DNA of 63,693 bases, counting the filler, from Babesia bigemina (Eukaryota): assembly GCF_000981445.1 (NCBI RefSeq). It is 8 parts of 8 records of this genome, joined end to end, with 100 filler letters (N's around TTAATTAATTAA, not from the genome) between each part and the next. Parts side by side here need not be neighbours in the genome. Positions count along the whole stretch, not along the records: positions 4,620 to 8,047 come from NW_012237363.1; 7 more parts are not named here. One strand, given 5' to 3'. The translations under genes were made by a program, and so were the position numbers. A model generated the notes under the pieces. That model was not told the origin of the DNA. It saw only the letters and a list, made by a program, of their open reading frames with translations, and searched no databases. Shown here piece by piece: positions 721 to 52,535 of this stretch (position 1 is its first letter; the number at the start of each line of letters is the position of its first letter).

Positions 721-727
721 CAGGAAG

Positions 728-2936: not shown

Positions 2937-2966
2937 TCCCTTGAATCACCTCGCCATATTACCGCT

Positions 2967-4519
2967 ATGACCTCTATAAACCATCCTAATAACTTGTGCC
3001 TTGTCACCCTTCCCTTCCCTTCTTCCACCTCTTGCCACTGCCCTGACCATGTGCCTCCTAGGGAGCTTGACAAGAAATTTGATGAAAATAAAAAGTGCGA
3101 AATAACCTCAAATAACAATCCTACTAACATCCTTACTAACCTCTGCACTGGCCTCGAAACCTTCCTCGGCTTTAACCCTGAGACAAAAGGCTACGACGGC
3201 AGTGGCATTGTGTACTCTGACCTTGACAGGCTGTGTGATGCAGTGATGGGATTTTTGAGTGGTGTTCTCAGTAACATCAAAGACCATTTAGGGCAGCATA
3301 AAGATACTTTAGAAGATGCAATTGACACTCTTAACACCAATAAACACGCCGGTAAAAAAGGTTTTAGTGTTGCGATTGTAAAGGTGGTCGAAGGGGTGGG
3401 GAGGTATAATAAGGCAGTTAAAAAGTCAAATGATCAAGTTAAAAACATCGTCACAGATCTACAAGGCTACACTGAAAATGGAGGTAAGTTACGTGTTTAT
3501 CTTAATACTTTGCAGAATCTGGAGAGCTCTTCACATGAAGATGTTAACAAGGCCAAGCAGCAAGTGGAAGAGAAGCTGCAAGAATCCCAACGGGAAGCGA
3601 GAAACTTCACTGACGCATTAGATACAACAAATACTAAAAATCTTAATGTAGACGCCATTAATGATCTTAATGATAAAGTAAAACAGAAACTTGCTAACGT
3701 GCGTAGTACTGTGATGTATGAAAACGGGCGGTTGGAGGCGGTCAAGGCGCACGCAGAGGGGGAGTTGGCAGAGACGATAAAAAAAGTTGGTGAAGCGTTA
3801 AGGGCGTTGAAAGTAAGTGTAGATTGTAATATAAGTGAACAAGTGACATTGCTGGTTAATGATTTGAAAACAAGGGTAGAGAAGATTTTGCAACTCTTGA
3901 AGACCATTCATAGTATGCTGATCGCTTACGTTCAAGAGGTGGGTGAGTGGATTACCAAGGCAGAACCAGCCGTTCACGCAGCGTTGGAGAAAGTGGAACA
4001 AATAATTAGGGAAGCGAATGCAGGTGACCAGAGCAAACAACCGGCGCAGATTATAGCGGTGGCCGACCAGTTGAAAGTGCAGGCTGACTTACTGTATGCA
4101 TCTGGTACTGCGGCGAAGGAGAGAGTTATTGCGGAAGTGAAAACAGCGCTTGAGGCTGTGAGAAAAATGGATGGGGAATTGAAGGAGGATTTGTATGGAG
4201 TTAAGAAAGCAGTAGAGGGGCAGGTTACTAAAATTAAGGAGGCGATCGGACAAGTGTACTTATAATGTAACCGGCAAGCAAGGTCCAGTAGGAGAGGAGA
4301 ATAAGAGTATCGAAAAGGTGATAGAACACTTTAAAGACAAGATATACGATATTGAGGGGCATGTTGGTGAAGCGATTAACGGTGGAGGACCTCTGGCTGG
4401 TACGGATGACAGCATATATAACAACTGGGGTGCTCTAAGAAGTAAAATAATGACGGCGGTCAATGAAATTTTTTAATAAGGAAAAGAGCCAAAATAGTAC
4501 TTACCTTGGACAAAATTCA
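2967..4519 (+). pseudogene. ves1: 5'-truncated ves1-family cassette (runs off contig end)
   Basis: Contains NLCTGLETFLGF...GIVYSDLDRLCD followed by a helical/coiled-coil region. It lacks the MRHVPKKLTDCPENLRESIDWL N-terminus. Frame breaks after 4265 lie near the contig end. Confidence 0.7.
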
Positions 4520-4619: not shown

Positions 4620-6100
4620 CCACTTTACATCGCCCCTTATCCACTCTACATCGCACCCTTATCCACTTTACATCGCCCCTTAACCCACTCTACATCGCCC
4701 CTTTATCCACTCTACATCGCTCCCTAACCCACTCTACATCGCCCCTTATCCACTCTACATCGCCCCTTAACCCACTCCACATCGCCCCTTAACCCACTCT
4801 ACATCGCCGCTTTACCCACTCTACATCGTTCCTTAATCCACTCTACATCGCTCCTTAACCCACTCTTCATCGCCCCTTAACCCACTCTACATCGCCCCTT
4901 ATCCACTACACATCGCTCCTTAACCCACTCTACATCGCCGCTTTACCCACTCTACATCGTTCCTTAATCCACTCTACATCGCTCCTTAACCCACTCTACA
5001 TCGCTCCCTAACCCACTCTACATCGCCCCTTTACCCACTCTACATCGCTCCTTAGTCCACCCTACATCGCTCCCTTATCCACTCTACATCGCCCCTTTAC
5101 CCACTCTACATCGCCCCTTAATCCACTCTACATCGCCCCTTAACCCACCCTACATCGCTCCCTTGTCCACTCTACATCGCTCCTTAACCCACTCTACATC
5201 GCTCCTTAACCCACTCTACATCGCTCCCTAACTCACTCTACATCGCTCCCTAACCCACTCCACATCGCCCCTTAACCCACTCTACATCGCTCCTTTATCC
5301 ACTCTACATCGCCCCTTAACCCACTCCTCATCGCCCCTTTATCCACCTTACATCGCCCCTTTACCCACTCCACATCGCCCCTTAACCCACTCTACATCGC
5401 CCCTTAACCCACTCCACATCGCTCCCTAACCCACTCTACATCGCTCCCTAACCCACTCAACATCGCCCCTTAACCCACTCTACATCGCCCCTTTATCCAC
5501 TCCACATCGCTCCCTAACCCACTCTACATCGCCCCTTTATCCACTCCACATCGCTCCCTAACCCACTCTACATCGCTCCCTAACCCACTCAACATCGCCC
5601 CTTAACCCACTCTACATCGCCCCTTTATCCACTCCACATCGCTCCCTAACCCACTCTACATCGCTCCCTAACCCACTCAACATCGCCCCTTAACCCACTC
5701 TACATCGCCCCTTAATCCACTCTACATCGCTCTTTTATCCACTCTACATCGCTCCCTAACCCACTCTACATCGCTCTTTTATCCACTCTACATCGCCCCT
5801 TAACCCACTCTACATCGCTCCTTTATCCACTCTACATCGCTCCTTAACCCACTCTACATCGCCCCTTAACCCACTCTACATCGCCCCTTAACCCACTCTA
5901 CATCGCTCCCTTATCCACTCTACATCGCTCCCTAACCCACTCTACATCGCTCCCTAACCCACTCTACATCGCTCCCTAACCCACTCTACATCGCCCCTTA
6001 AACCACTCTACATCGCCCCTTAACCCACTCTACATCGCCCCTTAACCCACTCCACATCGCTCCCTTACCCACTCTACATCGCCCCTTAACCCACTCTACA
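4620..6100 (+). repeat. 22-bp C-rich tandem array (~1.5 kb)
   Basis: CCACTCTACATCGCNCCTTAAC units. The first ~1.18 kb match 22607-23789 almost variant for variant. Confidence 0.92.
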
Positions 6101-6191
6101 TCCCTCGAATCACCTCGCCATATTACCGCTATGACCTCTTTAAACCACAATAAAAACTTGTGCCTTGTCCCCCTTCACCTCCCCTTCTGAC

Positions 6192-8047
6192 TGAGTCCAT
6201 CGACTGGTTGATCCAGGTTAGGTATGGGAATGGTGATGGTGGTGATGGTCTTGACCAGTTGTCTCAAGCTTTGAAAAAGTTGATTGAGGAGGCTATTGAG
6301 AAGGCTGAAAAGTCCCTTAAAGCCGAAAAAGATAAACTTGAATGCCCCTTCAAATACTCTGATAAGGAGACTTACTGTCAGTACTACCAGAGACTGCATG
6401 ACGAGGCTGAGAAAAAATTCAAAGAATCCAAAAAAACCGTTGAAAATATCCCAGATAATCATAGTATTAACTTCTATAAAACATGTCTAGAAGATTGTAT
6501 AAAGGCTCACCAAAAACATCCTCCATCTGCTGCCTTGAAGTCTGTTGAAGAGAAGATTGTCCAGCTTGGTCACCTTGCTGGCCAGCTTGGAGGATTTGTT
6601 GGTCAAAGTGAGAGTGTTAAGAAAGCTGTCAAGAATGCTATTATCGCTAAAATTAACAGTAATGAAGAGCTTAAACATCTTTACTCTTCTCTTGTTACTA
6701 ACCTTTCTGAGTCTGTCAAGTCTGCTGGCCAGGCTGATGACACCGGAAAAATTAGTGAGCTAAAAAGTAAAATTACCACTGAAATTAAGCTTACTGAAGA
6801 GACAATGAAGAAGCTTAAACCTTCTGTAATTAACTCTCCTTCTTCCCCCTCTCCCTCTGCTGAGTCAGACAAATTGCACTCCAAGTTGCAGGCTTTGGAG
6901 AAAGTGGAGAAGCTTTGTGAAAATTATGAGAAACTTAAAACTTCTGATAATAACCCAAAAAATCTCTTAGATAATTTATGTGACGGCCTCGAAACCTTCC
7001 TCGGCTTCAACTCTGCTTCCAAAGGCTACGATGGCACTGGGATAGTGTACTCCGACTTGGATAGGCTGTGTGACGGGGTGATGGGATTTTTGAGTGGAGT
7101 GCTTGGTGCGGTGAAAAACACTCAGACATACAATGTCGGTAAAAATACATTACAAAACTTGGTAAGTAATGAAATTAACAATCATCTTTGCTCAGGGCAC
7201 GAGGGCTTTAAAAGGCTTTTCGAAAAGTTGCCCAAGGAAATCGAGAAGTATAACAGGGACGTGAAAAAACAGAATGATGATATCACAGCCAAGATAAACA
7301 ATTTAGAGATGCAGTTAAATACCATGAATGATAAGGTAAGTAAAGTTTTAGAAAATGATGCTGTTTCAGGTACAACCAAGAAATCCGTGCAGGCTGTGAC
7401 GTACAGTGAGGAGCACGTGGAATACGCTGTGATAAATATTAGGCAGTATCTTCGTGACTGTCAATATAATGCCGATAGATTCAACGAAGCATTCGACCTA
7501 GAACAAAGATTAGACATGCAAACTGCTGTTAATGATCTTAACTCTAAGTTACGTAATGATGTACTTGTAGCCACGAAGGCAGTCAAACATGAAACACAGC
7601 GACTTGAGCAGTTGGCGCAGAAGGAGTGGGATGACTATAAATACATGAAGAGAACGGTGAGAGCAACGATGGAGAGTCTGAAATTATCAGTTAACGGTGA
7701 GGTAAAATACCAGGTAGATGAACTAGTTAAGAAATTGAAAGAGAAGGTTACGGAAATGAAAAATAACCTTGACCCAATTAGAGACAATCTCGGGGAATAC
7801 ATCGGACATTTGACTGCGTGGAAGTCAGCAGGCGACACAGCCGTTTCGACAGGCGAAGTCGCAGTCTGACGAGATGCTTTCGAAGTCGATCGGGAGGGAT
7901 TATCAACAAAATTCCGGGTATAAAGAAGGCGCTCAATAAACGCGGCAAAAGCCTTTCAACAGAGGGCGCAAGAGGTGAGCAACGAATGCGTAACAGGCTT
8001 AGCTGCAATTGGGCAGCAGTTTCAAGAGCGCTGACGTCGTCGCGGTT
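6192..8047 (+). pseudogene. ves1: Start-less ves1 cassette beginning at the 43-bp junction element (truncated by contig end)
   Basis: Frame opens at ESIDWLIQVRYGNG with no in-frame ATG upstream. From GIVYSDLDRL onward it is near-identical to the 16127 gene. Confidence 0.8.
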
Positions 8048-8147: not shown

Positions 8148-9639
8148 CATCTTATCTTATTCAGCTACTCATCTTATCTTATTCAGCTACTCATCTTATC
8201 TTATTCAGCTACTCATCTTCCTGTTTCTGGCCTTAGATAAGCCTTGATTCTAATTTGCCTTGTTATTGCTACTCATCTTATTCAGCTACTCATCTTATCT
8301 TATTCAGCTACTCATCTTCCTGTTTCTGGCCTTAGATAAGCCTTGATTCTAATTTGCCTTGTTATTGCTACTCATCTTATTCAGCTACTCATCTTATCTT
8401 ATTCAGCTACTCATCTTATCTTATTCAGCTACTCATCTTATCTTATTCAGCTACTCATCTTATCTTATTCAGCTACTCATCTTATCTTATTCAGCTACTC
8501 ATCTTATCTTATTCAGCTACTCATCTTATCTTATTCAGCTACTCATCTTATCTTATTCAGCTACTCATCTTCCTGTTTCTGGCCTTAGATAAGCCTTGAT
8601 TCTAATTTGCCTTGTTATTGCTACTCATCTTATTCAGCTACTCATCTTATCTTATTCAGCTACTCATCTTATCTTATTCAGCTACTCATCTTATCTTATT
8701 CAGCTACTCATCTTATCTTATTCAGCTACTCATCTTATCTTATTCAGCTACTCATCTTATCTTATTCAGCTACTCATCTTATCTTATTCAGCTACTCATC
8801 TTATCTTATTCAGCTACTCATCTTATCTTATTCAGCTACTCATCTTATCTTATTCAGCTACTCATCTTATCTTATTCAGCTACTCATCTTCCTGTATCTG
8901 GCCTTAGATCAGACTTGATTCTAATTTGCCTTGATATTGCTACTCATCTTATCTTATTCAGCTACTCATCTTATCTTATTCAGCTACTCATCTTATCTTA
9001 TTCAGCTACTCATCTTATCTTATTCAGCTACTCATCTTCCTGTTTCTGGCCTTAGATAAGCCTTGATTCTAATTTGCCTTGTTATTGCTACTCATCTTAT
9101 TCAGCTACTCATCTTATCTTATTCAGCTACTCATCTTATCTTATTCAGCTACTCATCTTATCTTATTCAGCTACTCATCTTATCTTATTCAGCTACTCAT
9201 CTTATCTTATTCAGCTACTCATCTTATTCAGCTACTCATCTTATCTTATTCAGCTACTCATCTTATCTTATTCAGCTACTCATCTTATCTTATTCAGCTA
9301 CTCATCTTCCTGTTTCTGGCCTCACTTCGCTCGGCCTTAGATAAGCCTTGATTCTAATTTGCCTTGTTATTGCTACTCATCTTATCTTATTCAGCTACTC
9401 ATCTTATCTTATTCAGCTACTCATCTTATCTTATTCAGCTACTCATCTTCCTGTTTCTGGCCTCACTTCGCTCGGCCTTAGATAAGCCTTGATTCTAATT
9501 TGCCTTGTTATTGCTACTCATCTTATCTTATTCAGCTACTCATCTTATCTTATTCAGCTACTCATCTTATCTTATTCAGCTACTCATCTTCCTGTTTCTG
9601 GCCTTAGATAAGCCTTGATTCTAATTTGCCTTGTTATTG
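8148..9639 (+). repeat. Telomere-associated satellite: 22-bp CAGCTACTCATCTTATCTTATT runs punctuated by a ~49-bp constant spacer
   Basis: Same satellite directly abuts the telomere tract at 42411-46048. Confidence 0.9.
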
Positions 9640-11329
9640 TAATCTCACTACGCACTTACAATCTCTATGTGCCACCTAACTCGGCGAACAATCCGCCTAC
9701 AAGTCCACTACCTTAATCACCAAGCCCTTTTCCACCCTCATGACTCCCCGCTGCCTGAGTGTGACGGATGGACTGGCAGCGCAACCACGCACCTTTGCCC
9801 GCCGCTACCAACGCTATGACTGCGCTACCCGTGTGCCTAATCAACGCTACTGTCACGCTACTCAGTGTCTCTATTTCGGCGCTTCACCGCCACGCCTCGC
9901 CACCTGCCGGCAGTCACCGACGTGACCAACACAAATGCCAAGCACTCAACAAATCACTGCACAGCACATTAACCAACACTTTTACCAACACAATGAGCAA
10001 CTACATAACCAACCAATCAACCAAACCACAAACCAAACACCTCACCAAAGCGCTACCAAAAAGGCCCACCAATGCACTAACCACGGTGCCAGGCAACGCT
10101 CTGACCAAGCCACACTCCACACGACATGAAGCAAGCAGTCAAATCTACTTAAGCAACGCACATGATACACATAAACACGCATCGACGTCCTCTCCGCATT
10201 AAATTAATATGCCTGATGTTAATTGCGATCTTGACCACGAAAGGGGATGGCCGGAATGTCACACCTCATTCCGCCTCCCTACTGAATTGAGTTACTGGCA
10301 CTAATAGTAATCATAATAATACATTACTCGACGCGTTCATCAGCGGCCGACATGCTCTCCCCTGCCTCATCAAGAGACACGCCGCCAAGCTGATATCACA
10401 AGTGCTCGTCAGCACAGTCGAGACACGGCTCCTCAGCTCCGTCGGTCTGCAAACATATTAGTTGATGGCATACATATAATATGAATCTACGCAACAAAAG
10501 AAACACATAAAACACGCATCAAAAGAAACGCACAGTCATGTAAGCGGCAATCAACAAAACAGCTGGATCAGACAACTAACCTACGCCCACCTAGACACGA
10601 ACAGAGTTGGAGCGCACTTGACAAACGTCCAGATAGACAGCGGAACGTCTACAAAGTCAAAACAATAGGAAAATAGTAATTAATCAAATTTTTTACCAGA
10701 CGGTAGCCGGCCATCCAACTCGCCGGAGCCAGGTTCTCCACGCCTGAACACCGCAACTTGGACTCGCCAAGGCTCGGCCGACCGTCCGGGAGAATGCTGG
10801 CGAAACATTCTGAACGGCCAACATGCAGAAAGTGGACACCGTTTTGCAGCATGTTTGTGCATGTGCATGTAAATGTAAACATGCATCTAGACAGCATGCG
10901 CACCGGGTGCACTAATCAACTACGCTACTTTAATGAGCTATTTGCGATGTTAAGACAGTTACGTAACGCGATAATCGCGATGCCAATGATAGTTGGTATA
11001 ATGATCTGTAGATGCGTATGTGTTATGCACGAGTCGCGACCGCGGTCGCTCCTTTCTCTAGACAATTTCATGCTCATTGAAAGTGCATGCATCATCGATA
11101 CGGTATTTGCCGGATGCGCTGTAATGGGGAGCAGTTGAAGGCAATTTTAAGCGGAAAACATTCAAGCAATTACCCCCGCATGCTGGCGGTACAAGGGAAC
11201 AAATAACGACGGTGAGCTATGTAAATACCCACATGCGCAACAAGCATCTTTCGCAGGAATAGCGATCATCAATCATGCGTTCATCGGCACTCTGCACTGT
11301 AATCACCTCATGACACTCCACATGCCAAG

Positions 11330-12886
11330 ATGATACGCCAGCGGACTCTGGATTACTACTTCAAGCCGTCGCCAAACAACGCTATCAAACTGCAGACCAA
11401 TAATGACACCCAGCCGACCACTACACCCATCACAGTCTCTCCTCAACCGGAGCAAAAAGTCAAGCGTCCGAGAGGCAGACCCAGGAAGGTCAGGCCAGTT
11501 GAGACCAGCGAAATTGTCAAGCGTCGGAGAGGCAGACCGCGGAAAGTCAGGCCTGTTGAGACTCCCGACGCTGTCAAGCAGGAGCAGCAGTGCAATGGTA
11601 ACGCGACGCCGGCCAGCGCATGTATTACAGTCTATCCTCAACCGGAGCAGAAAGTCAAACGTCCTAGAGGCAGGCCGCGAAAGGTCAGGCCTGTTGAGAC
11701 TAACGACGCTGTCAAGCAGGAGCAGCTGTGCTATGGTAACGCGACGCCGACAACTACACCCTTCACAGGAATTCCGCAACCGGAGCAGAAAGTCAAGCGT
11801 CCGAGGGGCAGACCCAGGAAAGTCAGGCCTGTTGAGACGACAGATGACGTCAACAAGCAGGAAGTGCGGACTCCAACATACAGCAAGGACACGCCTCGAC
11901 GCAGCAGCCGACTGCGGAATCAACGCACAAACTCACAGCAATATGTATATGACATGACAGAAATGGCCGACGAGACGCCGGCTTCCAATGCGATGCTCTC
12001 AACACAGGACGCATACCAGTCCCCTAGCAGATTGCTTGCCGATTTTCCGTACGCCAGATTCGGCTACACGCATCAGCCGGCTCACTTCCGTTCGCCTACC
12101 AGGAGGGAACTGTGGTCGCGGGTGGGCCGCATCTACAAGGAACTGCAGACTGTCCGCGATGACAATTACAAGCTGCCGCTTGATCCGCATCAGATGGCCA
12201 AGGAATCGCACATTATGCAACTCGAAACTGCACTGGACGACGCGCTAGAGGACGCCAAGTTTCTCGACTGGCAGAGGCATCACATGAATCGGATCAAGGA
12301 GCGCAGCGAGGAACCGCAGCTGGCAAAGGAGGAGCGTGACGTCCTGACGCTGGACGACGTGAGCTGCAATGATGTTATCAACGTTAATATGTTTGACTAC
12401 CTGATGACGCCGCAAGCAGAACGGTGGAACGCAGTGCCGCCAATTCGCTACCACGCCGACACACGCAACGTCAGCAGAGAGACGCCACCGCCACACCGAG
12501 TAGGACTAACTATCATACGCTATTCGCCGTCAGTATCGCAGCACTCAAATGATGAGACGCTCGACGACGCTGGCGAAAATGAGAATGTGCAAGAAAACAC
12601 CGGCCGACCAGTCGTGCGCCGGGAGCCAAGCGTAGACAGCGGCAGACTGCTCAGATGGAACACGCATCCGAGGGATGTGATCCCTAAACGCTACTGTGCA
12701 AATTACCCAGATGACATCGCGCCGTGTTTCTGCTGCACTATGCTATCTGAGCTTCCATGGAAACGCGTACGCAGCAACGCACCTGTGAGGTGTAAATGTG
12801 CAAGGCGTAAGCAGTCCGGTGCCCAGCGAAAAAGACGCAGATTGCGCTTCCTGAGACAAATGAGCAAAATACATCACATATCGTGA
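11330..12886 (+). CDS. 518-aa putative nuclear DNA-binding protein: N-terminal PIP-box, four AT-hooks, C-terminal Cys cluster, basic NLS-like stretch
   Basis: Intact ATG-to-TGA ORF. KRPRGRPRK x3 plus KRRRGRPRK; QRTLDYYF at aa 4-11; YC...PCFCC...RCKC; RKRRRLR. Identical copy at 47739-49295. Confidence 0.8.
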   Translation: MIRQRTLDYYFKPSPNNAIKLQTNNDTQPTTTPITVSPQPEQKVKRPRGRPRKVRPVETSEIVKRRRGRPRKVRPVETPDAVKQEQQCNGNATPASACITVYPQPEQKVKRPRGRPRKVRPVETNDAVKQEQLCYGNATPTTTPFTGIPQPEQKVKRPRGRPRKVRPVETTDDVNKQEVRTPTYSKDTPRRSSRLRNQRTNSQQYVYDMTEMADETPASNAMLSTQDAYQSPSRLLADFPYARFGYTHQPAHFRSPTRRELWSRVGRIYKELQTVRDDNYKLPLDPHQMAKESHIMQLETALDDALEDAKFLDWQRHHMNRIKERSEEPQLAKEERDVLTLDDVSCNDVINVNMFDYLMTPQAERWNAVPPIRYHADTRNVSRETPPPHRVGLTIIRYSPSVSQHSNDETLDDAGENENVQENTGRPVVRREPSVDSGRLLRWNTHPRDVIPKRYCANYPDDIAPCFCCTMLSELPWKRVRSNAPVRCKCARRKQSGAQRKRRRLRFLRQMSKIHHIS

Positions 12887-15800
12887 ACATACCTTTAATC
12901 GCTGCCACCGGCCACTTAAGTGAGTAGACACGTGCTAGCAGTCAGCCGTAAGCTGACCATGGTGATGACTAGACTACGTGTGCGGGGTCAATCGAACATC
13001 GGAAATGTATTCCGAATCTCCCGATACCCGCGCAGGTTATAGTGTTTCCACGCCCAGACACGCCTGACTAATTACACATGTGTGCAGCCACACATCCCAC
13101 ACCACCCTATCGGGGCCCAAGGGCCCCCGTCAGGCTACACCACAGCTGTTGGGTCAAAGTGGGTAAAAATCGGGGCTGATGCCTCACGTCATTTACGTAC
13201 ATTATACGTCATGTATGACACACCAGCAGCCGAGCGGTCGCTGCGACACCGAGCGCCGCCAGATAGACACATGACGACACCGGCAGGTGGAGTCGGATAG
13301 GAAATTTTTTACCGCACATCTAGAGTCACCAAACACGCTTACCAATCATTTTAAGACATTTTACAGCATTTTCTACTTTGGCGAATTTTTTGCCACGACG
13401 CGTACCCCGGCCGACCAGTGACTGGCGGAGTACGATACCACAGGCACCGCCTAACTACTCAAATAAGGTTGGAATGCCACGTCACGTTTTTCGCACACAT
13501 GATGTTATTCCGTCTTATTTTAAGCCACTTTTACAAACGCAATTACGTCCGCCACCGCCGAGATTCCGGCTATATCCATGCCGAGCAGCTAGCTGACGGC
13601 CGACCTTCTTAATGAGACATGACTACAGAATTGTTATGTAAGAACATTAGTAACGTTTAACGTATAATTTACGAGGTCAATGAGCACGTAAGTATGAGCG
13701 GTAGATTGCACAACGGTCAAGTAATGAATGCACTGGCAGACAGGGTGACACAGCTGGGTAGTGGTCAAATGCGAAAAATAATGAGCGTGTGTTTAGGCGG
13801 TGTAATATATCCACATATGTGTATTTTCATCTAAAAGTCACATAGCAATTTTAATACTAACATAGGTAGTTACTCAGCAAGTTACGCCTTATGTTACCCA
13901 TTGGTGTACATTTAAATAGTCAACACAATCACCTAAGCTTTTAATTAACGATTTACATACAACATTATTCCACACGTTAACCATATAATTCATAATGTTT
14001 TTGAGCAGTAACTAGACCGTTAACTCACCAGCCGCTCCCTGCTGCGCTTATGCTCCGGTGCTGGGCGAATTGGTGTCCGACGGCATGTCGCAATTTGTTA
14101 AGCAATTGTTGACTAAACAAGATCTCAATGACACATAATAGGCAATGTAAAATACGCAGCACATCTGTCTGTCACGTCTAATAGATGAGCCATTAGGTCG
14201 AGGCAGGCAGCGGAGCTGCCTAGTGCTGGGTGGGTGGTGCACGGAAAACTGTATTAATTCGTGCTCTACATGCCTTTCGTATCACATATGTGATGCTGTA
14301 ATTACGTGCTATTCGCTGCGTGAGTGCCGGTCGCTGCATGTCTTCTGGCGGACAGGTAGCTAACGTGTACGGCGTATTATCGCCGACATGATTACGCGAT
14401 GAATAGCATTCTCATGTCTTCAGATGTATGGAATGATGTTATAATAATCGCTATGTCAACCCACCTTGTTACTTACCTGTTGTCCGCAGTGGTCGTGGCC
14501 ACGGCGTTACATGTTGCGTTTTCCACTGCTCACGTTTCACCTAGCGGAATGATTTGTTTTGTCACGCATCCCTAATCACGTCACTAATCACATCTCAGAC
14601 GCATAATTACTTGACTAGCCGCCTATAATTTTCCTGGACGACGTGGCCCGTTTCCTCTTCGTCCTAGGCTACCAGGGGTGTCGGCGCTGTGCTAGACCTG
14701 GCGGAGGGTATCCGCCGTGCATTTGGAATAACGTCGTTGATGCGATAATATGTCATTTGATGATGTGATTGACAGTTTCTCAGCTGTATAACAATTTTGC
14801 CTTATCAGAGCAAATCTCACTGCTAGCGATGCAACGTTGATTAAGCTGGAATGTGCGTGAGAACCGCTTCATCAATAATGCGTTGTTGCTAGTCGAGCGC
14901 GGTACGCGCATGTGACGGTATACACGTGGTAGCGATTATGCAGCCAAAGAGACACGAGGCGCCGCGATTGGCGTCAGATGAGCTAGAAACTAAACAGCAG
15001 GCAACGTCAGTTGCCCGTGTGACTGAAATAAGACGAATGGACGAAATGGGAATACACAAATCAGCGTCGCAACGCTGAGTAACAATATCACGAGCAGATT
15101 CACGTGATAGAATGTTAACACGTAAAAATAGCGATAAGCAATTAGACTAGCGCACAATTTAACGCGGTGGCACATGTGATAATTAACAGTGTACTTCTGG
15201 TCACGAAGCAGCTGCGATAAGCTGCCGTGATAAACAAGCAGACTAGCAGCGAGTTAAGCACGTCGTAGAGCGGAAGGCGTAAGCCGGGGGAATGGGAAAG
15301 TAGAGAGGGAGGGTATCAGTCAGCTATCAATTCAGCCGTTTACTTAGCTATTTGCTTATCTTCTTGGTTACCTCTTTGGGTACCTTCTTGGTCAACACGT
15401 TACTCAGCCGCTTGTTCACGGCTTCGTTGCTCCTCTCACCCTTATCGGTGATCACATATTCGTAGGCATTACTGCCGCTCTCGTAGCTCATCTAGCGAAC
15501 ACTTTCGTTGCTCTTCACTGCTCCTGATGAAGGAACGGGCGCCTTCAGGAACGGTTGGGAAGGGCCGGGAACTGGGCGAATGGTTGTAGCTCCGATTTGG
15601 AGGCAACCCAGCTTTTGAGGCTGGGTGAGAGTTGAGTGTTTGAGTAAAGAGTGCGTATGAATTTGATTTGAATAGAAATTAGCAGCGTAGTCATATGTAA
15701 CGTAGGTGCGCATCGTCACTTATTCGAACGTTTTACCCCATCCCCGTGGGAGACCGGCCGGCGCATGGTGATGCGATATGGAATCCTCAGTGCGATGTCG

Positions 15801-16126
15801 TTGTTGACTGGAAGGCTGGGCAAGAGCCGTGAGCAGGAGCGAATGGCGCCGGAAGGGAGAGCGAAGGCCGAGATTCCGCTGAGGTAGGTGGTCGAGGTAG
15901 CGATATAAACGGTTTTCCTTGTTAGGTGAGCGAGGAAGGCTGCGAAATTGGTGAGTTTTTGCGTGATTCCATAACGTAGTGTGACTGTGAGCGAGATTCC
16001 ATCGAGATTCCATGTGCATGAGTTTGAGTTGAGTTATGTAATGTAGCTGTGGCATGCGTGTTGAGTGCGGGTGGTCGTGATTAGTTAGAAACGTGAGTGA
16101 AAGTGCGAGGTAAGTGAGCCTTGAAA
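12887..16126 (+). promoter_or_regulatory. 3.2-kb unique upstream region (putative promoter/5' UTR) of the ATG-bearing ves1 gene
   Basis: No convincing ORF. Found only upstream of the two ves1 copies that have the native start, and duplicated without indel at 49296-52535 (offset 36409). Confidence 0.5.
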
Positions 16127-19100
16127 ATGAGGCATGTCCCTAAGAAATTAACGGACTGTCCGGAAAATCTCCGTGAGTCCATCGACTGGTTGATCCAGGT
16201 TAGGTATGGGAATGGTGAAGGTAAGGGTCTTGATGAGTTGGCCAAAGCTCTGAAAAAGTTGATTGAGGAGGCTATTGAGAACGCTACTAAAAGCTTTGAA
16301 AAGCGTGAAAATGAACTTCATTGCAATTATCTTCCTAATAATAACAAGTGTTGTGAGGAGCTTAAACAGAAAATTGAGGGAGCTAAATCCGACAACTCCA
16401 AGCTTCTTAAAGCTGAATCCGACTTACAAAAGCACATTGATGCAGATCATTCTCTTACTGATGACGCCAGGAAAAAGCAGTTGAAGGATATTGATAATAG
16501 CCGTATTCAACTTGGTCACCTTGCTGGCCAGCTTGGAGGATTTGTTGGTCAAAGTGAGAGTGTTAAGAAAGCCGTTATGTATGCTATTATCGCTAAAATT
16601 AACAGTCATGAAGAGCTTAAAAATGTTTACTCTTCTCTTGTTACTACCCTTTCTGAGTCTGTCAAGTCTGGTGTCCAGGCTGGTGACACCAAGAAAATTA
16701 GTGAGCTTAATAAGTTAGTTACTGCAGAAATTCAGCGTCTTAATGATCAACTTAGTAAGCCTAATAACCTTAATAATAACTCTCCTTCTTCCCCCTCTCC
16801 CTCTGCTGACCCAGCCAAATTGCAGTCCAAGTTGGAGGCATTGGAGAAAGTGAAGGAGCTTTGTGAATTTTATGAGAATCTTAATACTAAACAAAATGAT
16901 CCTAAAAAGCTCTTAGATAATTTATGTTCCGGCCTCGAAAAATTCCTCGGCTTCAACTCTGACTCCAAAGGCTACGACGGCAGTGGGATTGTGTACTCCG
17001 ACTTGGACAGGCTGTGTGACGGGGTGATGGGATTTTTGAGTGGTGTGCTTGGTGCGGTGAAAAACACTCAGACATACAATGTCGGTAAAAATACATTACA
17101 AAACTTGGTAAGTAATGAAATTAACAATCATCTTTGCTCAGGGCACGAGGGCTTTAAAAGGCTTTTCGAAAAGTTGCCCAAGGAAATCGAGAAGTATAAC
17201 AGGGACGTGAAAAAACAGAATGATGATATCACAGCCAAGATAAACAATTTAGAGATGCAGTTAAATACCATGAATGATAAGGTAAGTAAAGTTTTAGAAA
17301 ATGATGCTGTTTCAGGTACAACCAAGAAATCCGTGCAGGCTGTGACGTACAGTGAGGAGCACGTGGAATACGCTGTGATAAATATTAGGCAGTATCTTCG
17401 TGACTGTCAATATAATGCCGATAGATTCAACGAAGCATTCGACCTAGAACAAAGATTAGACATGCAAACTGCTGTTAATGATCTTAACTCTAAGTTACGT
17501 AATGATGTACTTGTAGCCACGAAGGCAGTCAAACATGAAACACAGCGACTTGAGCAGTTGGCGCAGAAGGAGTGGGATGACTATAAATACATGAAGAGAA
17601 CGGTGAGAGCAACGATGGAGAGTCTGAAATTATCAGTTAACGGTGAGGTAAAATACCAGGTAGATGAACTAGTTAAGAAATTGAAAGAGAAGGTTACGGA
17701 AATGAAAAATAACCTTGAACCAATTAGAGACAATCTCGGGGAATACATCGGACATTTGACTGCGTGGAAGTCAGCAGGCGACACAGCCGTTACGAAGGCG
17801 AAGTCGCAGTGTGATGAGATTGTTTCGAAGTTGAACGGGAGGGATTATCAACAAAATTCCGGGGATAAAGGAGCGGTGAAAAAAGCGGCAAAAGCATTGC
17901 AAGAGAAGGCGGAAGAGCTTAGGACCAAAGCGTACGATGCTAAGCAGCAGGTTGAGCAGAAAGTACAAGAAGCCTTGAAAGCTGTGCACCAAATGAATGA
18001 TGACCTGAAGCAGGATTTGTCGAAGGTGAGGGAGGCGATTACCGGTGAGGTTGATAAAGTTAAGCAAGCAATTGGGAAGCTGTATGCAGGTATTACGACT
18101 GGAGAATCAGGAGAAGGAAATGAAAATCAAGAAATTAAAAACATAGTCGAATATTTCAGAACAAAACTTAAAGAAATTACGGGAAGTGTGGGTGGAAGAG
18201 AGAACCCTAAAACAGGTCTCATGGGAATTATCTTCCAAGTAAGAGAATATGCAAAAACGTTTCAGAATAGATTTAAAGCATCCATTCAGAGCATGGTTCA
18301 ACAGTTGGTGGAATGTGAGGGTATACAGGAGAGACTCATAAAATCAGTTAAAGCAAAACTTGGCAGAGGTAACATGATAAGAGTTGATGAAGAAGTGAAA
18401 CGCATAATCCAGCAGCGGATTATAAGTCCAATCGAAGCCATTAATGCTTCTTCATCAAACCTGGGAACGAAACCAAATGTTGAAGCAAATTTGTCTGATA
18501 TTAAAGAATATTTATGCAATTACGGCAAGCAGATTGATGAGCATTTACAAAGAGCGAACGCATTTTTACAATCCTACGCCAAACAGTTTGAACACAGCCA
18601 AAATAGACCGGAGATTACAGGCGACTATTTTATTAGTAGGGTCGTCAAAACCATTCTTACCGCGCTACAGAAAGCGGTTAAGGGTGCGGAGAATGAATTC
18701 GATCAATTCATAATAGACTCCAAGATTGCTCAGTTGAGTATAGCTACAAGTGCAGCCGAGACGCTGGAAGACAACGTAAAAAAAGCTCTTGGCATTGGCT
18801 CCGGTAATAATACAGTTGCCGTCGACGTCGATAAATCTATAAATAATGTCAACGCTGTGGCTAGGCAGCAGTTGCCGGGTAATAGTGTTTCATCGGTTGA
18901 CTTAAGTCAGGCCACATCTAGTTTTACGCGTTACACAAAGCACGTTGATCAGAGTAAACTGACTGCTCTTCAGACCACTAACCTTAATGCCATTCTTGAC
19001 GCAAACAAACTCCCACACGCCATCAAAGGGATTAACGATCAGGTGGTTGCTGAGACGTTGAAAGATGTCGTAGAAGAAAAGAACGGAGGTGATACACAAA

Positions 19101-22100
19101 TCCACAACAAAACCTTCTCCACTCTGCGCACCGCCGTCGACTCCAGCCTGGACAAATTCACCGAAGCCGTTGAAAAGCTTGTTAAAAAGGACAGCGTCAA
19201 TACTACAGTGAATGCCTACCTGTTGGATTTGGAGAAGATGCTTAAGGAAAGTGATCCTGTCAAGGTTTCGGCTGATGGAATGACTGCCCACTCCTCCGTC
19301 AAAGGCCTCGAGAAAATAATAGGAAATTTCACCACTCTTAAGAACAACCTGGAGAGCGGTCCCATTGCATTGGCCGACTATTTCATCGAATCCTACGCTG
19401 ACGCAGAAAAAGATCAAACCATACGAAACCTCATAGATTATGTCTACTCCCAAGTCAACATCGCTAAAGATCTCCTCACCACCGCCGCCCGCCGCAACTA
19501 CGTCACCTCCGTGAAATCGCTCCTCACCGCGTTCGCGGACAAGGTCGAAAAGGAGTTGGCGGGGTTGCCGGGGGAGATTGATGCGGATCTGACGATCGGG
19601 TTCAAGGGGTTGATGGGAAACTTTTACGAGAAGTTTATTGATAAAATTAAGCCAATCAAAGAAATTAATATTAAGTCTACTCCCCAATCAATGCCACTGA
19701 GCACCGCAGCTGAAAAGGTACAGAGCGGTTTCGAGGAGTTCGTGGGCGCAGTTATGAAACAGACCGATATGTTTGGGAATGTGCTTGCCAAAATTGAGAC
19801 ATCAAATCATAATGATGACCAGATTCAAGACACTTTCCCCCCTCTACTACAGACAGTTATCTCAGTGTCACGGGCTTTGGAGGACACTTTTTCATACCTT
19901 ACGGGTTCACATCATTTTGACTATGAGGTTATTAAACATCTGCAGAGACTACAAACGGCATTGAATGACTTCACTCCTACGAAATTCGGTGACACTTCCA
20001 GTCCAATCCTACAAGCATTAAAGGAGGGATTCTTCGGCATAGTTACGGAGCTTCAGAAAGTGTATATTAACACGTACTCTGGTCAGACGATTAAGTGGGA
20101 GGAGGGCAATCCTGAAACTACATTCTGCGCCAAAGCCTTCCTCAGTGCACTCGAATTTCTAAATGAGGACCTCAGCTATTTGAGAGAGCAATGTACTGAG
20201 AAGTGGTCGCCTAAACAGATCTATGCCTCAAGCAGTCTCGGCACATTCCTCCATAAATGCGGCTACGGCGTTGCTACTCTCGAATCCAAGCAGGACGGTG
20301 AGCTACGTAATAAGCCTGACTGCATGGGTTCAGATGTACGCGGGTTCCTTGTCGGCGAGGGATACACTGAAGTTTATAACTCCAAATCCAATATCAAACA
20401 CGCATTACAATACATTTACGACTACCTTCCCGATTATTACGATGTTTGCCACCTGTCCACTTCATCCTCCAAAAGACCATGTTCCGTCTACGAAATGCTA
20501 TGCTGGCTTACCGGGCTTCCGCACAATAAGGCATATAATGAGTTGTTACTACACGGTCTAAGTGATATGTTTGTAGACCCAAAGCGGCAGGAAAAAGAGG
20601 TCGACGGTGACATTGAGTTCACAGTGGATCGGACGGAACACGTGCACATCGACGCGTATCCAAACCGACTTACTTACGAGAACACCTGCAATCTCGTCGA
20701 TCATATCTGTGCTAAATCGCACGACGTATTGTGTCGAATCCTTGGCACCGGTGACGAGAACACCATGTACGCTGTCGATTACTCCACCAACTCACTCAAG
20801 TTGTACTACCCCTCTTCGGGTGAGGAATGCCTTGACATGTTCCTCAACATTTTGCGTAGATTGTTCCCACCACTCAAATACTTGCAAACGCAATGTGGCA
20901 TTGCCGCAAACGAATTCGGCTGGGCTGGTTGCCGTTATGGCAAGGATGTCCATACAACCAAATGGCCATGTAGCGGACACTCAAGCAGTGAAGCAACGTG
21001 CCATGCAAATTGTCAAACAACGTGCCAACCTACGTGCCAACCAAAATCGCCACTAATGAGCTACCTAAACGATTGCCTTCCGGGTCATTTACCTCACGCC
21101 CTGACTGGCATTGGTTGCAAAGCCAAATGTTCAACCTGCCCGAAATCCACGCCCGGGATGCCGTGTATCACGCCACTTGGATTCAGGTGTTTCTCTGGGA
21201 CCACACGTGAAGGTAGAGATATATGTAACGTGTTGACCAAGTTCTTCGGCAATGGCGATCTTAGCACCCTATTCAGCCTACAACCCAAAACGCCGTCTAC
21301 GCTGCCGGAGCATTTCGGATTCACGTTGTCGCTTGTTGCTGGCTGGGTTGGTAGCGACAACCAGAAGCGCAAGACAGGTGTGGAAAAACCTTTTGAAGAT
21401 GCCATTAGTAGCGTGTCCATTGGCCTGTACGACGAGCGCACAAAGCTCACGGATGCACTGCGTGATGCCTATGGAAACAATCAGAATACGCACGATGCTG
21501 CGAAATATCATAATCAAGCTGGTAAGAACCAAGGTACTGAAATTAAAAATTACGACTTGTCAAGTCTGTCAATGGATACTTTGTGTTCTCGTGATAACCA
21601 TTGTGGCCCGTACTTGGCGTCGCTGTGCCGGGATTACTACGGGTGTTTACCACACAAGAATTCGGAAACATATCTGTCATGGGCCGTATACCTTCCATGG
21701 ACATTTTGGGACTTCCTTAAAAATCTGTACGATGCGTTCTGTTCCATCGCTTGTGTAGATTGGGGATGCCGTGGTTGCTTAAAAGGCGATAAGTGCAGGA
21801 AAGGATCACACGGGTCTGTCAACGACGTTACGAAGAAATGTAATTGTCAGTGTCCATCCATTGTGGAATGCAAAGGTGTAGCCTCGACATTGTACAAATA
21901 TGGTTTCGTCTTTGGTGAAGCCTCAACGCTTAATAACAAGGATGCGCCCAAGAAGTGCTCTGATTTCTGTAGTCAGTTGGAGAATGTTATAAAATCGAAA
22001 TATTTCAAGAAATTGTTTGAGGAGTGCGACAACTTCCTATATTATATCCGTTTCCCCTTCATGACCCTAACACTAGCCCTCTGGCTCCTCTCTTTGCTGT

Positions 22101-22249
22101 ACCTCATCCACATCATGGTCATCCGCCTCGACCTGCTCCACATCAAATCGCATTTGCACAGTCCGTCAAGTCATAGAATTGCTGCTCAATCACTACTTGC
22201 TGCGGGACGTGTTAACAAGCTTAACAGAGTGTTTTATCTGCAGCCTTAA
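16127..22249 (+). CDS. ves1: Complete ves1-family variant erythrocyte surface antigen-like protein (~2040 aa)
   Basis: ATG at 16127. Has the N-terminal KKLTDCPENLRESIDWL motif typical of VESA1-family proteins, GIVYSDLDRLCD, a Cys-rich C-terminal region, a TM helix and the RLDLLHIKSHLHSPSSHRIAAQSLLAA tail. Confidence 0.9.
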   Translation: MRHVPKKLTDCPENLRESIDWLIQVRYGNGEGKGLDELAKALKKLIEEAIENATKSFEKRENELHCNYLPNNNKCCEELKQKIEGAKSDNSKLLKAESDLQKHIDADHSLTDDARKKQLKDIDNSRIQLGHLAGQLGGFVGQSESVKKAVMYAIIAKINSHEELKNVYSSLVTTLSESVKSGVQAGDTKKISELNKLVTAEIQRLNDQLSKPNNLNNNSPSSPSPSADPAKLQSKLEALEKVKELCEFYENLNTKQNDPKKLLDNLCSGLEKFLGFNSDSKGYDGSGIVYSDLDRLCDGVMGFLSGVLGAVKNTQTYNVGKNTLQNLVSNEINNHLCSGHEGFKRLFEKLPKEIEKYNRDVKKQNDDITAKINNLEMQLNTMNDKVSKVLENDAVSGTTKKSVQAVTYSEEHVEYAVINIRQYLRDCQYNADRFNEAFDLEQRLDMQTAVNDLNSKLRNDVLVATKAVKHETQRLEQLAQKEWDDYKYMKRTVRATMESLKLSVNGEVKYQVDELVKKLKEKVTEMKNNLEPIRDNLGEYIGHLTAWKSAGDTAVTKAKSQCDEIVSKLNGRDYQQNSGDKGAVKKAAKALQEKAEELRTKAYDAKQQVEQKVQEALKAVHQMNDDLKQDLSKVREAITGEVDKVKQAIGKLYAGITTGESGEGNENQEIKNIVEYFRTKLKEITGSVGGRENPKTGLMGIIFQVREYAKTFQNRFKASIQSMVQQLVECEGIQERLIKSVKAKLGRGNMIRVDEEVKRIIQQRIISPIEAINASSSNLGTKPNVEANLSDIKEYLCNYGKQIDEHLQRANAFLQSYAKQFEHSQNRPEITGDYFISRVVKTILTALQKAVKGAENEFDQFIIDSKIAQLSIATSAAETLEDNVKKALGIGSGNNTVAVDVDKSINNVNAVARQQLPGNSVSSVDLSQATSSFTRYTKHVDQSKLTALQTTNLNAILDANKLPHAIKGINDQVVAETLKDVVEEKNGGDTQIHNKTFSTLRTAVDSSLDKFTEAVEKLVKKDSVNTTVNAYLLDLEKMLKESDPVKVSADGMTAHSSVKGLEKIIGNFTTLKNNLESGPIALADYFIESYADAEKDQTIRNLIDYVYSQVNIAKDLLTTAARRNYVTSVKSLLTAFADKVEKELAGLPGEIDADLTIGFKGLMGNFYEKFIDKIKPIKEINIKSTPQSMPLSTAAEKVQSGFEEFVGAVMKQTDMFGNVLAKIETSNHNDDQIQDTFPPLLQTVISVSRALEDTFSYLTGSHHFDYEVIKHLQRLQTALNDFTPTKFGDTSSPILQALKEGFFGIVTELQKVYINTYSGQTIKWEEGNPETTFCAKAFLSALEFLNEDLSYLREQCTEKWSPKQIYASSSLGTFLHKCGYGVATLESKQDGELRNKPDCMGSDVRGFLVGEGYTEVYNSKSNIKHALQYIYDYLPDYYDVCHLSTSSSKRPCSVYEMLCWLTGLPHNKAYNELLLHGLSDMFVDPKRQEKEVDGDIEFTVDRTEHVHIDAYPNRLTYENTCNLVDHICAKSHDVLCRILGTGDENTMYAVDYSTNSLKLYYPSSGEECLDMFLNILRRLFPPLKYLQTQCGIAANEFGWAGCRYGKDVHTTKWPCSGHSSSEATCHANCQTTCQPTCQPKSPLMSYLNDCLPGHLPHALTGIGCKAKCSTCPKSTPGMPCITPLGFRCFSGTTREGRDICNVLTKFFGNGDLSTLFSLQPKTPSTLPEHFGFTLSLVAGWVGSDNQKRKTGVEKPFEDAISSVSIGLYDERTKLTDALRDAYGNNQNTHDAAKYHNQAGKNQGTEIKNYDLSSLSMDTLCSRDNHCGPYLASLCRDYYGCLPHKNSETYLSWAVYLPWTFWDFLKNLYDAFCSIACVDWGCRGCLKGDKCRKGSHGSVNDVTKKCNCQCPSIVECKGVASTLYKYGFVFGEASTLNNKDAPKKCSDFCSQLENVIKSKYFKKLFEECDNFLYYIRFPFMTLTLALWLLSLLYLIHIMVIRLDLLHIKSHLHSPSSHRIAAQSLLAAGRVNKLNRVFYLQP

Positions 22250-31960: not shown

Positions 31961-32049
31961 CCCTCGAATCACCTCGTCATATTACCGCTATGACCTCCTT
32001 AAACCATACCAATAACTTCTGCCTTGCCACCCTTCCCTCACCTTCTGAC

Positions 32050-52200: not shown

Positions 52201-52535
52201 GCGATGTCGTTGTTGACTGGAAGGCTGGGCAAGAGCCGTGAGCAGGAGCGAATGGCGCCGGAAGGGAGAGCGAAGGCCGAGATTCCGCTGAGGTAGGTGG
52301 TCGAGGTAGCGATATAAACGGTTTTCCTTGTTAGGTGAGCGAGGAAGGCTGCGAAATTGGTGAGTTTTTGCGTGATTCCATAACGTAGTGTGACTGTGAG
52401 CGAGATTCCATCGAGATTCCATGTGCATGAGTTTGAGTTGAGTTATGTAATGTAGCTGTGGCATGCGTGTTGAGTGCGGGTGGTCGTGATTAGTTAGAAA
52501 CGTGAGTGAAAGTGCGAGGTAAGTGAGCCTTGAAA
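49296..52535 (+). promoter_or_regulatory. Second copy of the 3.2-kb ves1 upstream region
   Basis: Duplicate of 12887-16126. Confidence 0.5.

What the first reader, a model, noticed from the sequence alone, without database searches (positions are those of the whole stretch)
6131..6234. Silent cassettes start exactly at a 43-bp junction element, behind a 20-codon ORF that stops on the junction
Seen: TGAGTCCATCGACTGGTTGATCCAGGTTAGGTATGGGAATGGT is identical at 6192-6234, 16174-16216, 32050-32092 and 52583-52625, including synonymous positions, while flanking coding sequence varies. At 6131 and 31990 the leader ATG gives MTSLNH...SPSD*, whose TGA is the first 3 nt of the element and out of frame with ves1. 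These cassettes therefore cannot make the full-length protein unless joined to the ATG-bearing upstream sequence. Known: Pneumocystis msg uses a conserved recombination junction element (CRJE) shared by the UCS expression site and silent genes. Inference: a functional analogue.
Basis: partly seen in the sequence, partly recalled or inferred. Interest (0 to 1): 0.85.

Follow-up and report, generated by a model that had tools for sequence, protein, structure and literature searches.

The report
Telomere-capped Babesia antigen locus with cassettes
In the cattle parasite Babesia bigemina, an identical 7-kb block next to a chromosome end supplies the start of two different surface-antigen genes, while nearby copies lack that start and share sequence with it from a 43-base junction onward, likely a donor-cassette system for changing the antigen, though its expression is untested.

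Summary
The 43-mer is real (4 exact copies). The '20-codon ORF that stops on the junction' is true for only 1 of 2 cassettes and is a generic post-repeat spacer, not a feature of the junction. What matters is larger. The window is eight joined contigs of Babesia bigemina ves1b loci. Two contigs share 7,280 bp without one mismatch: telomere-side repeat, an orphan ORF, a motif-rich upstream region, the ATG and the element. They diverge two bases after the element. One starts with telomere repeats, so the gene points inward. Five repeat-flanked cassettes lack the N-terminus; two begin at the element. The leader-bearing genes are mosaics: 4,151 bp identical to a headless cassette, and 127 residues identical to another gene starting inside the element. 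Both junction types recur in two other isolates, and B. ovata gene models show the same split. Best reading (0.5): one or a few telomere-capped expression-competent loci fed by gene conversion, working like Pneumocystis UCS/CRJE but inverted. It is not exclusive: 28 internal ves1b genes have their own starts, and one carries most ves1b reads among those I looked up in a published blood-stage RNA-seq table. No RNA was found for the leader.

The parts
41575..42370 (+). Degenerate telomere repeat (CCCTAAA type) at the start of contig E: a chromosome end lies to the left of the leader block
   Evidence: 77 CCCTAAA units in 817 bp
42411..46048 (+). Telomere-side 22-bp repeat array (A/T-rich unit), contig E; same array at 8148-9639 in contig C; the two arrays differ in unit order upstream of 8939/45348
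8939..16218 (+). Leader block, copy in contig C: 7,280 bp identical base for base to 45348-52627; first mismatch at 16219
45348..52627 (+). Leader block, copy in contig E (telomere-linked)
11330..12886 (+). 518-aa orphan ORF with repeated KRPRGRPRK (AT-hook-like, label recalled) motifs inside the leader block; second copy 47739-49295
   Evidence: no Pfam (14), no homolog (34), no Atlas hit (41)
15727..16126 (+). Candidate promoter region: 5 GATTCC/GGAATC motifs in the 400 bp before the ATG
   Evidence: 0 of 20,000 base shuffles reach 5; motif chosen after the fact from 5 tried; motif named in PMC4148916 legend
16127..22249 (+). Complete leader-bearing ves1b gene, 2,040 aa, one ORF, N-terminus MRHVPKK; mosaic of cassette sequence
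52536..53315 (+). Second leader-bearing ves1b allele (259 aa to a stop near the contig end); residues 19-145 identical to BBBOND_0310230
16174..16216 (+). 43-bp junction element in the leader-bearing gene (contig C)
52583..52625 (+). 43-bp junction element in the leader-bearing gene (contig E)
6192..6234 (+). 43-bp junction element at the 5' end of headless cassette B
32050..32092 (+). 43-bp junction element at the 5' end of a headless cassette, 10 kb downstream of the complete gene in contig C, same orientation
4620..6106 (+). Cassette-side 22-bp C-rich repeat array (others: 2506-2941, 22603-23827, 30112-31965, 40399-41463 minus)
   Evidence: 48% C, 5% G
6107..6191 (+). Post-array spacer with the ATG at 6131 (19-codon ORF, stop 6188-6190); homologous spacers follow all five arrays
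31966..32049 (+). Post-array spacer with the ATG at 31990 (20 codons, stop on the element)
6192..8047 (+). Headless cassette B starting at the element (cut by the contig end)
32050..33904 (+). Headless cassette starting at the element (cut by the contig end)
24014..29623 (+). Headless cassette without the element, entering about residue 105-130
34904..40249 (-). Headless cassette D without the element; 4,151 bp identical to 17045-21195 of the complete gene (likely donor or copy)
2967..4265 (+). Headless cassette A without the element; spacer ATG in frame for 432 codons

Best explanation
A 7-kb telomere-linked block carrying the ATG and first 16 codons of a B. bigemina ves1b gene is joined to different gene bodies, and it likely acts as an expression locus (one or a few copies) whose body is likely replaced by homologous gene conversion from repeat-flanked cassettes that lack the N-terminus. 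SHOWN: the identical block on two contigs with different bodies; the telomere at its outer end with the gene pointing inward; cassettes whose homology to the gene begins at the 43-bp element or further in; exact tracts shared between leader-bearing genes and cassettes, one starting inside the element. INFERRED: the block holds the promoter and is transcribed; the cassettes are silent donors; cassettes that start at the element can replace the whole variable body, and deeper-starting ones donate segments; the conserved 3' end, 3' repeats and C-rich 22-bp arrays give the downstream homology. The element is simply the 5'-most homology, so ordinary homologous recombination suffices and no site-specific recombinase is needed. 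Because the block is telomere-proximal, one crossover at the element would move or copy the whole chromosome end onto another inward-pointing cassette, and a loop-out between 16174 and 32050 would do the same in cis. This is a second tier beside chromosome-internal ves1b genes that have their own starts and appear to be expressed in place.
For: 7,280 bp with 0 mismatches, first mismatch 2 nt after the element, in a region where contigs of two other isolates differ from the window by about 10% (e.g. 60 of 672 and 73 of 667 letters). Telomere repeat at the outer end of contig E. Four leader-bearing proteins (two from the window, P0003, P0033) are identical to residue 26-30 and then 28-49% alike. 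Exact tracts: 4,151 bp with cassette D, 694 bp with F, 674 bp with B, 392 bp with A; 821 aa with headless P0031; E residues 19-145 identical to BBBOND_0310230, whose preceding residues differ. In 34 of 36 150-aa windows of the four leader-bearing proteins the best non-leader hit is among the 43 proteins without their own full N-terminus, not the 28 with one. Census of predicted proteins: small B. bigemina contigs 3 of 37 MRHVPKK, 0 of 37 any other full N-terminus; chromosome scaffolds 28 of 37 own N-terminus, 0 MRHVPKK; B. ovata 22 of 22 own on the 3.70-Mb contig, 1 of 26 on small contigs, 3 of 26 entering at SIDW. In run X1 one contig bridges the leader ATG into the element (record 6); in X2 spacer-type sequence joins the element (record 12 and loose ends). 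GATTCC cluster before the ATG, none before 5 cassette entries. In B. caballi the dominant ves1c transcript (38%) maps to a contig end (PMC10463595).
Against: No RNA evidence for the leader locus. P0003 and P0033 accessions are absent from the 3,723-row blood/tick RNA-seq table of PMC9806345, though reads of another strain counted on a mosaic, multi-copy locus would be lost. In that table the internal self-starting gene BBBOND_0304560 has 98-310 CPM, and Jackson 2014 names internal genes as the dominant VESA1B proteins. Only 2 of 5 cassettes start at the element; both share 9 further upstream bases, so the boundary may be one old event. Any two family members diverge after the element because the protein turns variable there. 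The telomere-side arrays of C and E differ beyond 0.7 kb, which fits two chromosome ends as well as one. The C-terminal tree mixes cassettes and self-starting genes (quick tree), so the two pools are not isolated. 'Headless' in the census rests on predicted protein starts, not on DNA. Direction of transfer is not shown.
Confidence: 0.5

Rival explanations
1. Relic reading: the leader-bearing genes are 2-4 ordinary subtelomeric paralogues at separate chromosome ends, made identical upstream by copying of chromosome ends. The headless cassettes are by-products of ectopic recombination, amplified from a few old truncations. The 43-mer is only the conserved N-terminal coding block. Regulated VESA1b expression comes from internal self-starting genes switched in place, as at the B. 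bovis LAT.
For: Internal own-start gene dominant in blood RNA-seq; 3 of 20 own-start genes looked up are listed, one varying 0.6-82 CPM between samples. Shared 9-nt upstream flank; other invariant runs of 31 and 22 nt; arrays of C and E differ; upstream-block contigs in X1 are often 2-4 times deeper than single cassette contigs and show two variants (the tool warns depth is no copy number).
Against: It does not explain why the full N-termini on small contigs are all the same leader (3 of 3, plus allele E), why those genes stay open while being mosaics with kb-long exact tracts, or why the same split appears in B. ovata models.
Confidence: 0.28
2. Cassettes are expressed in place from the conserved post-array ATG, directly in frame or through a short intron, giving N-terminally shortened VESA1b.
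For: The spacer ATG is conserved after all five arrays and opens 432 codons at 2967. An in-silico test found that a 49-50 nt intron would put both junction cassettes in frame. Two public models start in frame about 10 codons before the junction (P0006, P0071). Peptides were assigned to chromosome-end genes, three of which are headless in my census.
Against: The needed donors are far from a canonical splice donor (one is GC); the product would lose the LTDCPENLRE motif that 28 of 28 own-start genes keep; frames of the spacer ATG differ between cassettes; four chromosome-end or small-contig genes seen in the RNA-seq table have about 1-5 CPM; peptides came from another strain and can derive from a mosaic.
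Confidence: 0.1
3. Assembly artefact: contigs C and E are chimeric joins or a collapsed repeat split by the assembler at conserved ves sequence.
For: Unplaced repeat-rich contigs; contig D begins with an inverted 534-bp copy of contig A sequence; allele E has stops near its contig end; array B matches array C for 1.2 kb but leads to a different cassette.
Against: The leader-to-element join and the spacer-to-element join are each seen in independent public runs; gene C is one open frame of 2,040 codons; four leader-bearing proteins are on record. Even a split single locus implies several real alleles in the sample.
Confidence: 0.07
4. The element is the target of a site-specific recombinase or a special DNA structure that directs breaks there.
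For: Two 4-bp inverted repeats and one 4-bp mirror repeat in the 43-mer; only one common variant listed inside it in two other isolates (8 rows not shown).
Against: Repeats of 4 bp are expected by chance; no purine-rich mirror repeat like the P. jirovecii CRJE; most tracts begin and end elsewhere in the gene; the His/Tyr variant is tolerated.
Confidence: 0.05

Closest known systems
Pneumocystis msg-I UCS/CRJE system (PMC5676039, PMC10622565; passages read)
   Same: An upstream block supplies the protein start; a short conserved in-gene element (33 bp there, 43 bp here) ends the block and begins start-less subtelomeric genes; different bodies are found behind the same block; other family members have their own starts.
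   Different: No homology. There the genes point toward the telomere, the UCS is single-copy and every msg-I has the CRJE. Here the block lies between telomere and gene, the gene points inward, only 2 of 5 cassettes have the element, copy number is unknown, and long repeat arrays precede the cassettes.
Borrelia hermsii vmp expression site with UHS and DHS (PMC6011951; abstract and passages read)
   Same: A partly intragenic upstream homology and a downstream homology flank silent donors that convert a telomere-near locus.
   Different: The 61-62 bp UHS spans the transcription start and start codon, and the gene points toward the telomere; here the junction lies 16 codons into the gene and cassettes lack the start.
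Babesia bovis ves1 LAT with segmental gene conversion (PMC6630957 passages; PMC4066756 named sections)
   Same: Same gene superfamily; mosaic genes built from tracts of other copies.
   Different: The LAT is a head-to-head pair, many mostly interstitial loci can become active in place, and donors are whole genes. Here no divergent ves partner was seen in the 6.5 kb upstream, the locus abuts a telomere and donors lack the N-terminus.
Trypanosoma brucei VSG expression sites (PMC6152948; abstract and passages read)
   Same: Telomeric loci with conserved upstream structure and an extra ORF; repeat arrays before silent genes.
   Different: VSG is the last gene before the telomere and the same 70-bp repeats serve site and donors (recalled); here site and cassettes have different 22-bp arrays and the orientation is reversed.
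Babesia caballi dominant ves1c locus BcabD6B2_18120 (PMC10463595, section 14 and passages read)
   Same: A ves1b-related gene at a contig end gives 38% of family reads.
   Different: No headless cassettes, junction or leader block are described in what I read; its structure could not be examined here.

Membership tests
B. bigemina ves1b (VESA1b) | Homology to genes annotated BbigVes1b and conserved VESA C-terminal domain with transmembrane helix | tested here: met
   Residues 1-400 hit BBBOND_0303890 (E 2.6e-44) and others labelled BbigVes1b in the Jackson table; C-terminus shares 43-46 residue exact runs with them. No Pfam VESA1 hit at E 0.01.
Pneumocystis-type UCS/CRJE system | Upstream block carries the protein start and ends in a short element | tested here: met
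Pneumocystis-type UCS/CRJE system | Different gene bodies fused in frame to the same block at the element | tested here: met
   2 in the window with the full block; 2 more by protein N-terminus only
Pneumocystis-type UCS/CRJE system | Every silent member begins with the element | tested here: not met
   2 of 5 array-flanked cassettes; spacer depth exceeds element depth in X1 and X2
Pneumocystis-type UCS/CRJE system | Single copy of the upstream block per genome | tested here: inconclusive
   No whole genome held; contig depths fit 1 to about 5 copies or mixed strains; arrays of C and E differ
Pneumocystis-type UCS/CRJE system | Genes oriented toward the telomere, block centromere-proximal | tested here: not met
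   Telomere, block, then gene pointing inward; BBBOND_0314000 is on the minus strand 42 kb from the right end of its 3.52-Mb scaffold
Pneumocystis-type UCS/CRJE system | Block is the active promoter and expression is mutually exclusive | not testable with these tools
   No RNA holder listed; motif cluster only
B. bovis-type LAT | Divergent ves gene pair around a bidirectional promoter | tested here: not met
   Longest minus-strand ATG ORF in 9640-16200 is 111 aa; a many-intron gene is not excluded
B. bovis-type LAT | Segmental gene conversion from other copies | tested here: met
   Exact tracts of 392-4,151 bp and 127-821 aa; direction not shown
T. brucei-type VSG expression site | Same repeat array upstream of the expressed gene and of donors | tested here: not met
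   Two unrelated 22-bp units

The most novel reading that the evidence does not exclude
B. bigemina (and B. ovata) has a single mobile expression cap: telomere, 7-kb promoter block with its own DNA-binding-like ORF, and the first 16 codons, which is recombined at the 43-bp junction onto inward-pointing headless cassettes, so that the contigs seen are switched variants of one locus. It would be a fixed, recombination-loaded antigen expression site in an apicomplexan, and a mirror image of the Pneumocystis system in which the promoter travels with the telomere.
Probability: 0.25. Interest if true: 0.87.

Novelty: new variant of a known kind. Interest (0 to 1): 0.62.

Why it matters
[quoted passage not shown] Ves1b loci were the worst assembled and least orthologous between strains (0-3.3%); a leader-plus-cassette system would explain that, and why many annotated ves1b models lack an N-terminus. 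It names one primer-sized constant region from which switching can be followed directly by amplicon or long-read sequencing, and shows why standard read counting is blind to this locus. It would also be an independent origin of a CRJE-like design with reversed polarity.

Tried and rejected
Whole genome: none held, so the genome-wide count of the 43-mer could not be made. Metagenome scan for the first 31 nt of the element: 0 matches. Sequencing runs: no RNA holder listed, no evidence either way. Earlier findings of this scan: 0 in 3 look-ups. Upstream 518-aa ORF: no Pfam family, none of 2,040 candidates at E 0.001 for residues 190-518 among proteins of 284-907 aa, no Atlas hit, exact sequence not in the collection; the search of 50% representatives was queued and never returned. 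Of 11 codons changed by the listed X1/X2 variants in this ORF, 4 are synonymous, 7 change a residue and none gives a stop: not informative. C-terminal 300-aa tree of 98 of 128 proteins (those with an intact C-terminus; quick tree, careful search unfinished) does not separate cassettes from own-start genes. A sequence motif tried as a subfamily marker was in 0 of 28 own-start, 2 of 3 leader and 16 of 39 headless proteins: partial. The short ORF as a regulatory uORF: rejected, frame not kept. Triplex or palindrome in the element: nothing beyond 4-bp repeats. Canonical G4 motifs in the cassette array: 0, relaxed ones 12. Contig depth as copy number: not accepted. PMC7999288 holds no mention of ves, vesa, telomer or antigenic variation; PMC4718594 does not mention UHS or DHS; PMC9531838 passages say only that VESA expression is sporadic.

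Full report
WHAT THE WINDOW IS. Seven linkers of N44-TTAATTAATTAA-N44 cut the window into eight contigs: A 1-4519, B 4620-8047, C 8148-33904, D 34005-41463, E 41564-53618, F, G, H. Adjacency across linkers means nothing. The long ORFs are VESA1b proteins of Babesia bigemina: the best hits to residues 1-400 of the 2,040-aa ORF at 16127 are B. bigemina and B. ovata proteins (229 hits, 120 listed), among them genes labelled BbigVes1b in the proteomics table of Jackson 2014. No whole genome is held.

THE OBSERVATION. The 43-mer is at the four stated places, with no match in 100 shuffles and no degenerate fifth copy. The short-ORF claim fails at the very coordinates of the finding: from 6131 the ORF has 19 codons and stops at 6188, two bases before the element and in another frame; only 31990 gives 20 codons ending on the element. 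The same ATG follows each of the five C-rich 22-bp arrays and is in frame for 432 codons at 2967. It is part of a conserved post-array spacer. Two of the five array-flanked cassettes start at the element; the other three enter at about residues 105-130, 130-220 and 150-265 of the leader-bearing proteins, depending on the protein compared. The element is the longest of three runs shared by all four copies (43, 31, 22 nt). It encodes the end of the conserved N-terminal motif, after which all family members diverge, so invariance alone is weak evidence.

THE REAL SIGNAL. Contigs C and E are identical over 7,235 bp upstream of the element and 45 bp from its start, 7,280 bp without a mismatch; the first difference is at 16219. 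Contigs from two other isolates differ from this block by roughly 10%, so the identity is recent. Contig E begins with about 800 bp of telomere repeat, then an A/T-rich 22-bp array, then the block: the gene points away from the telomere. The block holds a 518-aa orphan ORF and five GATTCC motifs in the last 400 bp (a post hoc choice among five motifs named in PMC4148916). Downstream of the complete gene in C come array, cassette, array, cassette, all in the same orientation. Named chromosome-end genes are arranged alike: BBBOND_0314000 lies on the minus strand near the right end of its scaffold, and the proteomics table lists its neighbours as reverse and the first chromosome-2 genes as forward.

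EXCHANGE. Gene C shares an exact 4,151-bp tract with headless cassette D, and exact tracts of 694, 674 and 392 bp with F, B and A; 821 residues are identical to headless P0031. Allele E is identical for residues 19-145 to BBBOND_0310230, whose preceding residues differ from the leader, so that tract starts inside the element. Two more public proteins on small contigs, P0003 and P0033, begin with the same 26-30 residues and have other bodies; I did not establish whether they come from the same assembly as the window, and I could not read their DNA. Over the four leader-bearing proteins, 34 of 36 windows have their best non-leader hit among the 43 proteins lacking an own full N-terminus.

CENSUS. 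I classified the 128 proteins held after by their predicted start. B. bigemina small contigs: 3 of 37 MRHVPKK (one is the window's gene C), 2 enter at IDW, 32 headless, none with another full N-terminus. Chromosome scaffolds: 28 of 37 own N-terminus, 7 headless, 2 with a degenerate or internal motif, none MRHVPKK. B. ovata: 22 of 22 own on the 3.70-Mb contig, 0 of 6 on the 3.14-Mb contig, 1 of 26 on small contigs, where 3 enter at SIDW. Limits: only proteins of 1,122-3,570 aa were searched, 109 of 229 hits were not listed, and these are gene-finder models.

OTHER ISOLATES. Two DNA runs held a small share of the block. Laid at 80% likeness, X1 has a contig from 15543 to 16207 that bridges the ATG into the element. 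On cassette B, X2 has spacer-type sequence joined to the element, and the only listed variant inside the element is 6223 T>C (16 of 109 and 45 of 196 depth; 8 rows not shown). Summed depths are about 2-28 over the block, 103-291 over the element and 327-723 over the start of the spacer. The tool warns that this is no copy number; I take from it only that the block is rare next to the cassettes and that spacers outnumber elements.

AGAINST AN EXCLUSIVE SITE. Jackson 2014 names two internal genes as dominant VESA1B proteins in another strain. Its table shows 2-12 peptides per ves protein in the rows I saw, one dominant group shared by nine genes, peptides on many chromosome-end genes, and no small-contig identifiers. 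In the blood/tick RNA-seq table of PMC9806345 (unique-gene counts on the reference, low genes removed), 3 of 20 own-start genes I looked up are listed: 98-310, 0.6-82 and 3-9 CPM in blood. Four chromosome-end or small-contig genes have about 1-5 CPM, and P0003 and P0033 are absent. So internal genes seem to be expressed in place. The table cannot test a mosaic, multi-copy leader locus of another strain (my inference). The arrays of C and E differ beyond 0.7 kb from the unique block, so two chromosome ends remain as likely as two alleles of one.

MECHANISM. The most economical reading is homologous gene conversion into one or a few telomere-capped loci, the element being the 5'-most homology that donors offer (0.5). 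Rivals: homogenised paralogues with relic cassettes (0.28), expression of cassettes in place (0.10), assembly artefact (0.07), site-specific recombination (0.05). It works like the Pneumocystis UCS/CRJE system but fails two of its defining features (element on all donors; orientation), so it is not filed as a member.

NOVELTY. Nine full-text searches gave no paper whose listing points to a leader block, junction or headless cassettes in Babesia; no paper listed (30 of 37 shown) holds the phrase 'conserved recombination junction'. Subscription papers are mostly outside the library. What I saw: PMC4066756 abstract, sections 4 (part 1 of 2), 22 (part 1 of 2), 23, 24, 26, passages, supplement 2 in full and searches of supplement 3 (figures not held); PMC10463595 section 14 and passages; PMC9806345 passages and searches of its supplements; passages only of PMC10622565, PMC5676039, PMC5660447, PMC6630957, PMC6011951, PMC4148916, PMC6152948, PMC9531838, PMC4718594; a null term search in PMC7999288. 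Jackson 2014 draws the general analogy to msg and vsg but describes no such site in what I read. The B. caballi contig-end locus is the nearest hint. The AT-hook label and the VSG 70-bp repeat detail are recalled.

VERDICT. The headline detail is half wrong, the architecture behind it is real and apparently undescribed, and the function is untested. New variant of a known kind; interest 0.62.

Noticed in passing
window 11330-12886 and 47739-49295: 518-aa ORF with repeated KRPRGRPRK motifs and a Cys-rich, basic C-terminus inside the telomere-side block; no homolog found; the region is present in two other isolates. A candidate locus-associated DNA-binding protein.
   Followed up: partly
window 4620-5841 vs 22606-23827: The array before cassette B is 99.5% identical over 1.2 kb to the array after gene C, yet the two lead to different cassettes: exchange within the arrays or variant haplotypes.
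   Followed up: partly
window 34023-34555 vs 3338-3871: Contig D begins with 534 bp 99.8% identical to contig A's cassette, inverted against D's own gene and abutting its 3' repeats.
   Followed up: no
window 22379-22575, 29746-30099, 2065-2484, 34556-34784: After the stop of these ves genes come 12-bp repeats, in most cases also 20-bp repeats, before the 22-bp array: a conserved downstream homology block.
   Followed up: partly
window 16110-16115: A consensus splice-donor hexamer lies 17 nt before the leader ATG; no upstream in-frame ATG was seen that would use it.
   Followed up: no
window 59917-62852: Contig H holds rap-1 genes (Pfam RAP-1, E 4e-16 for 61776-62852); unrelated to the finding.
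   Followed up: no
window 57552-59816: Contig G is a pure 12/24-bp tandem array of another unit.
   Followed up: no
window 9-718 and 54273-55368: Contigs A and F share a 74-bp repeat with about 470 bp of unique flank, next to short ORFs with hydrophobic stretches.
   Followed up: no
P0025 (B. ovata, 48-kb contig): The only one of 26 small-contig B. ovata proteins with a full N-terminus: a candidate for the equivalent leader-bearing locus.
   Followed up: no
run X1 on window 6182: One contig joins the repeat array almost directly to the junction, with most of the spacer missing: the spacer ATG is dispensable in that copy.
   Followed up: no
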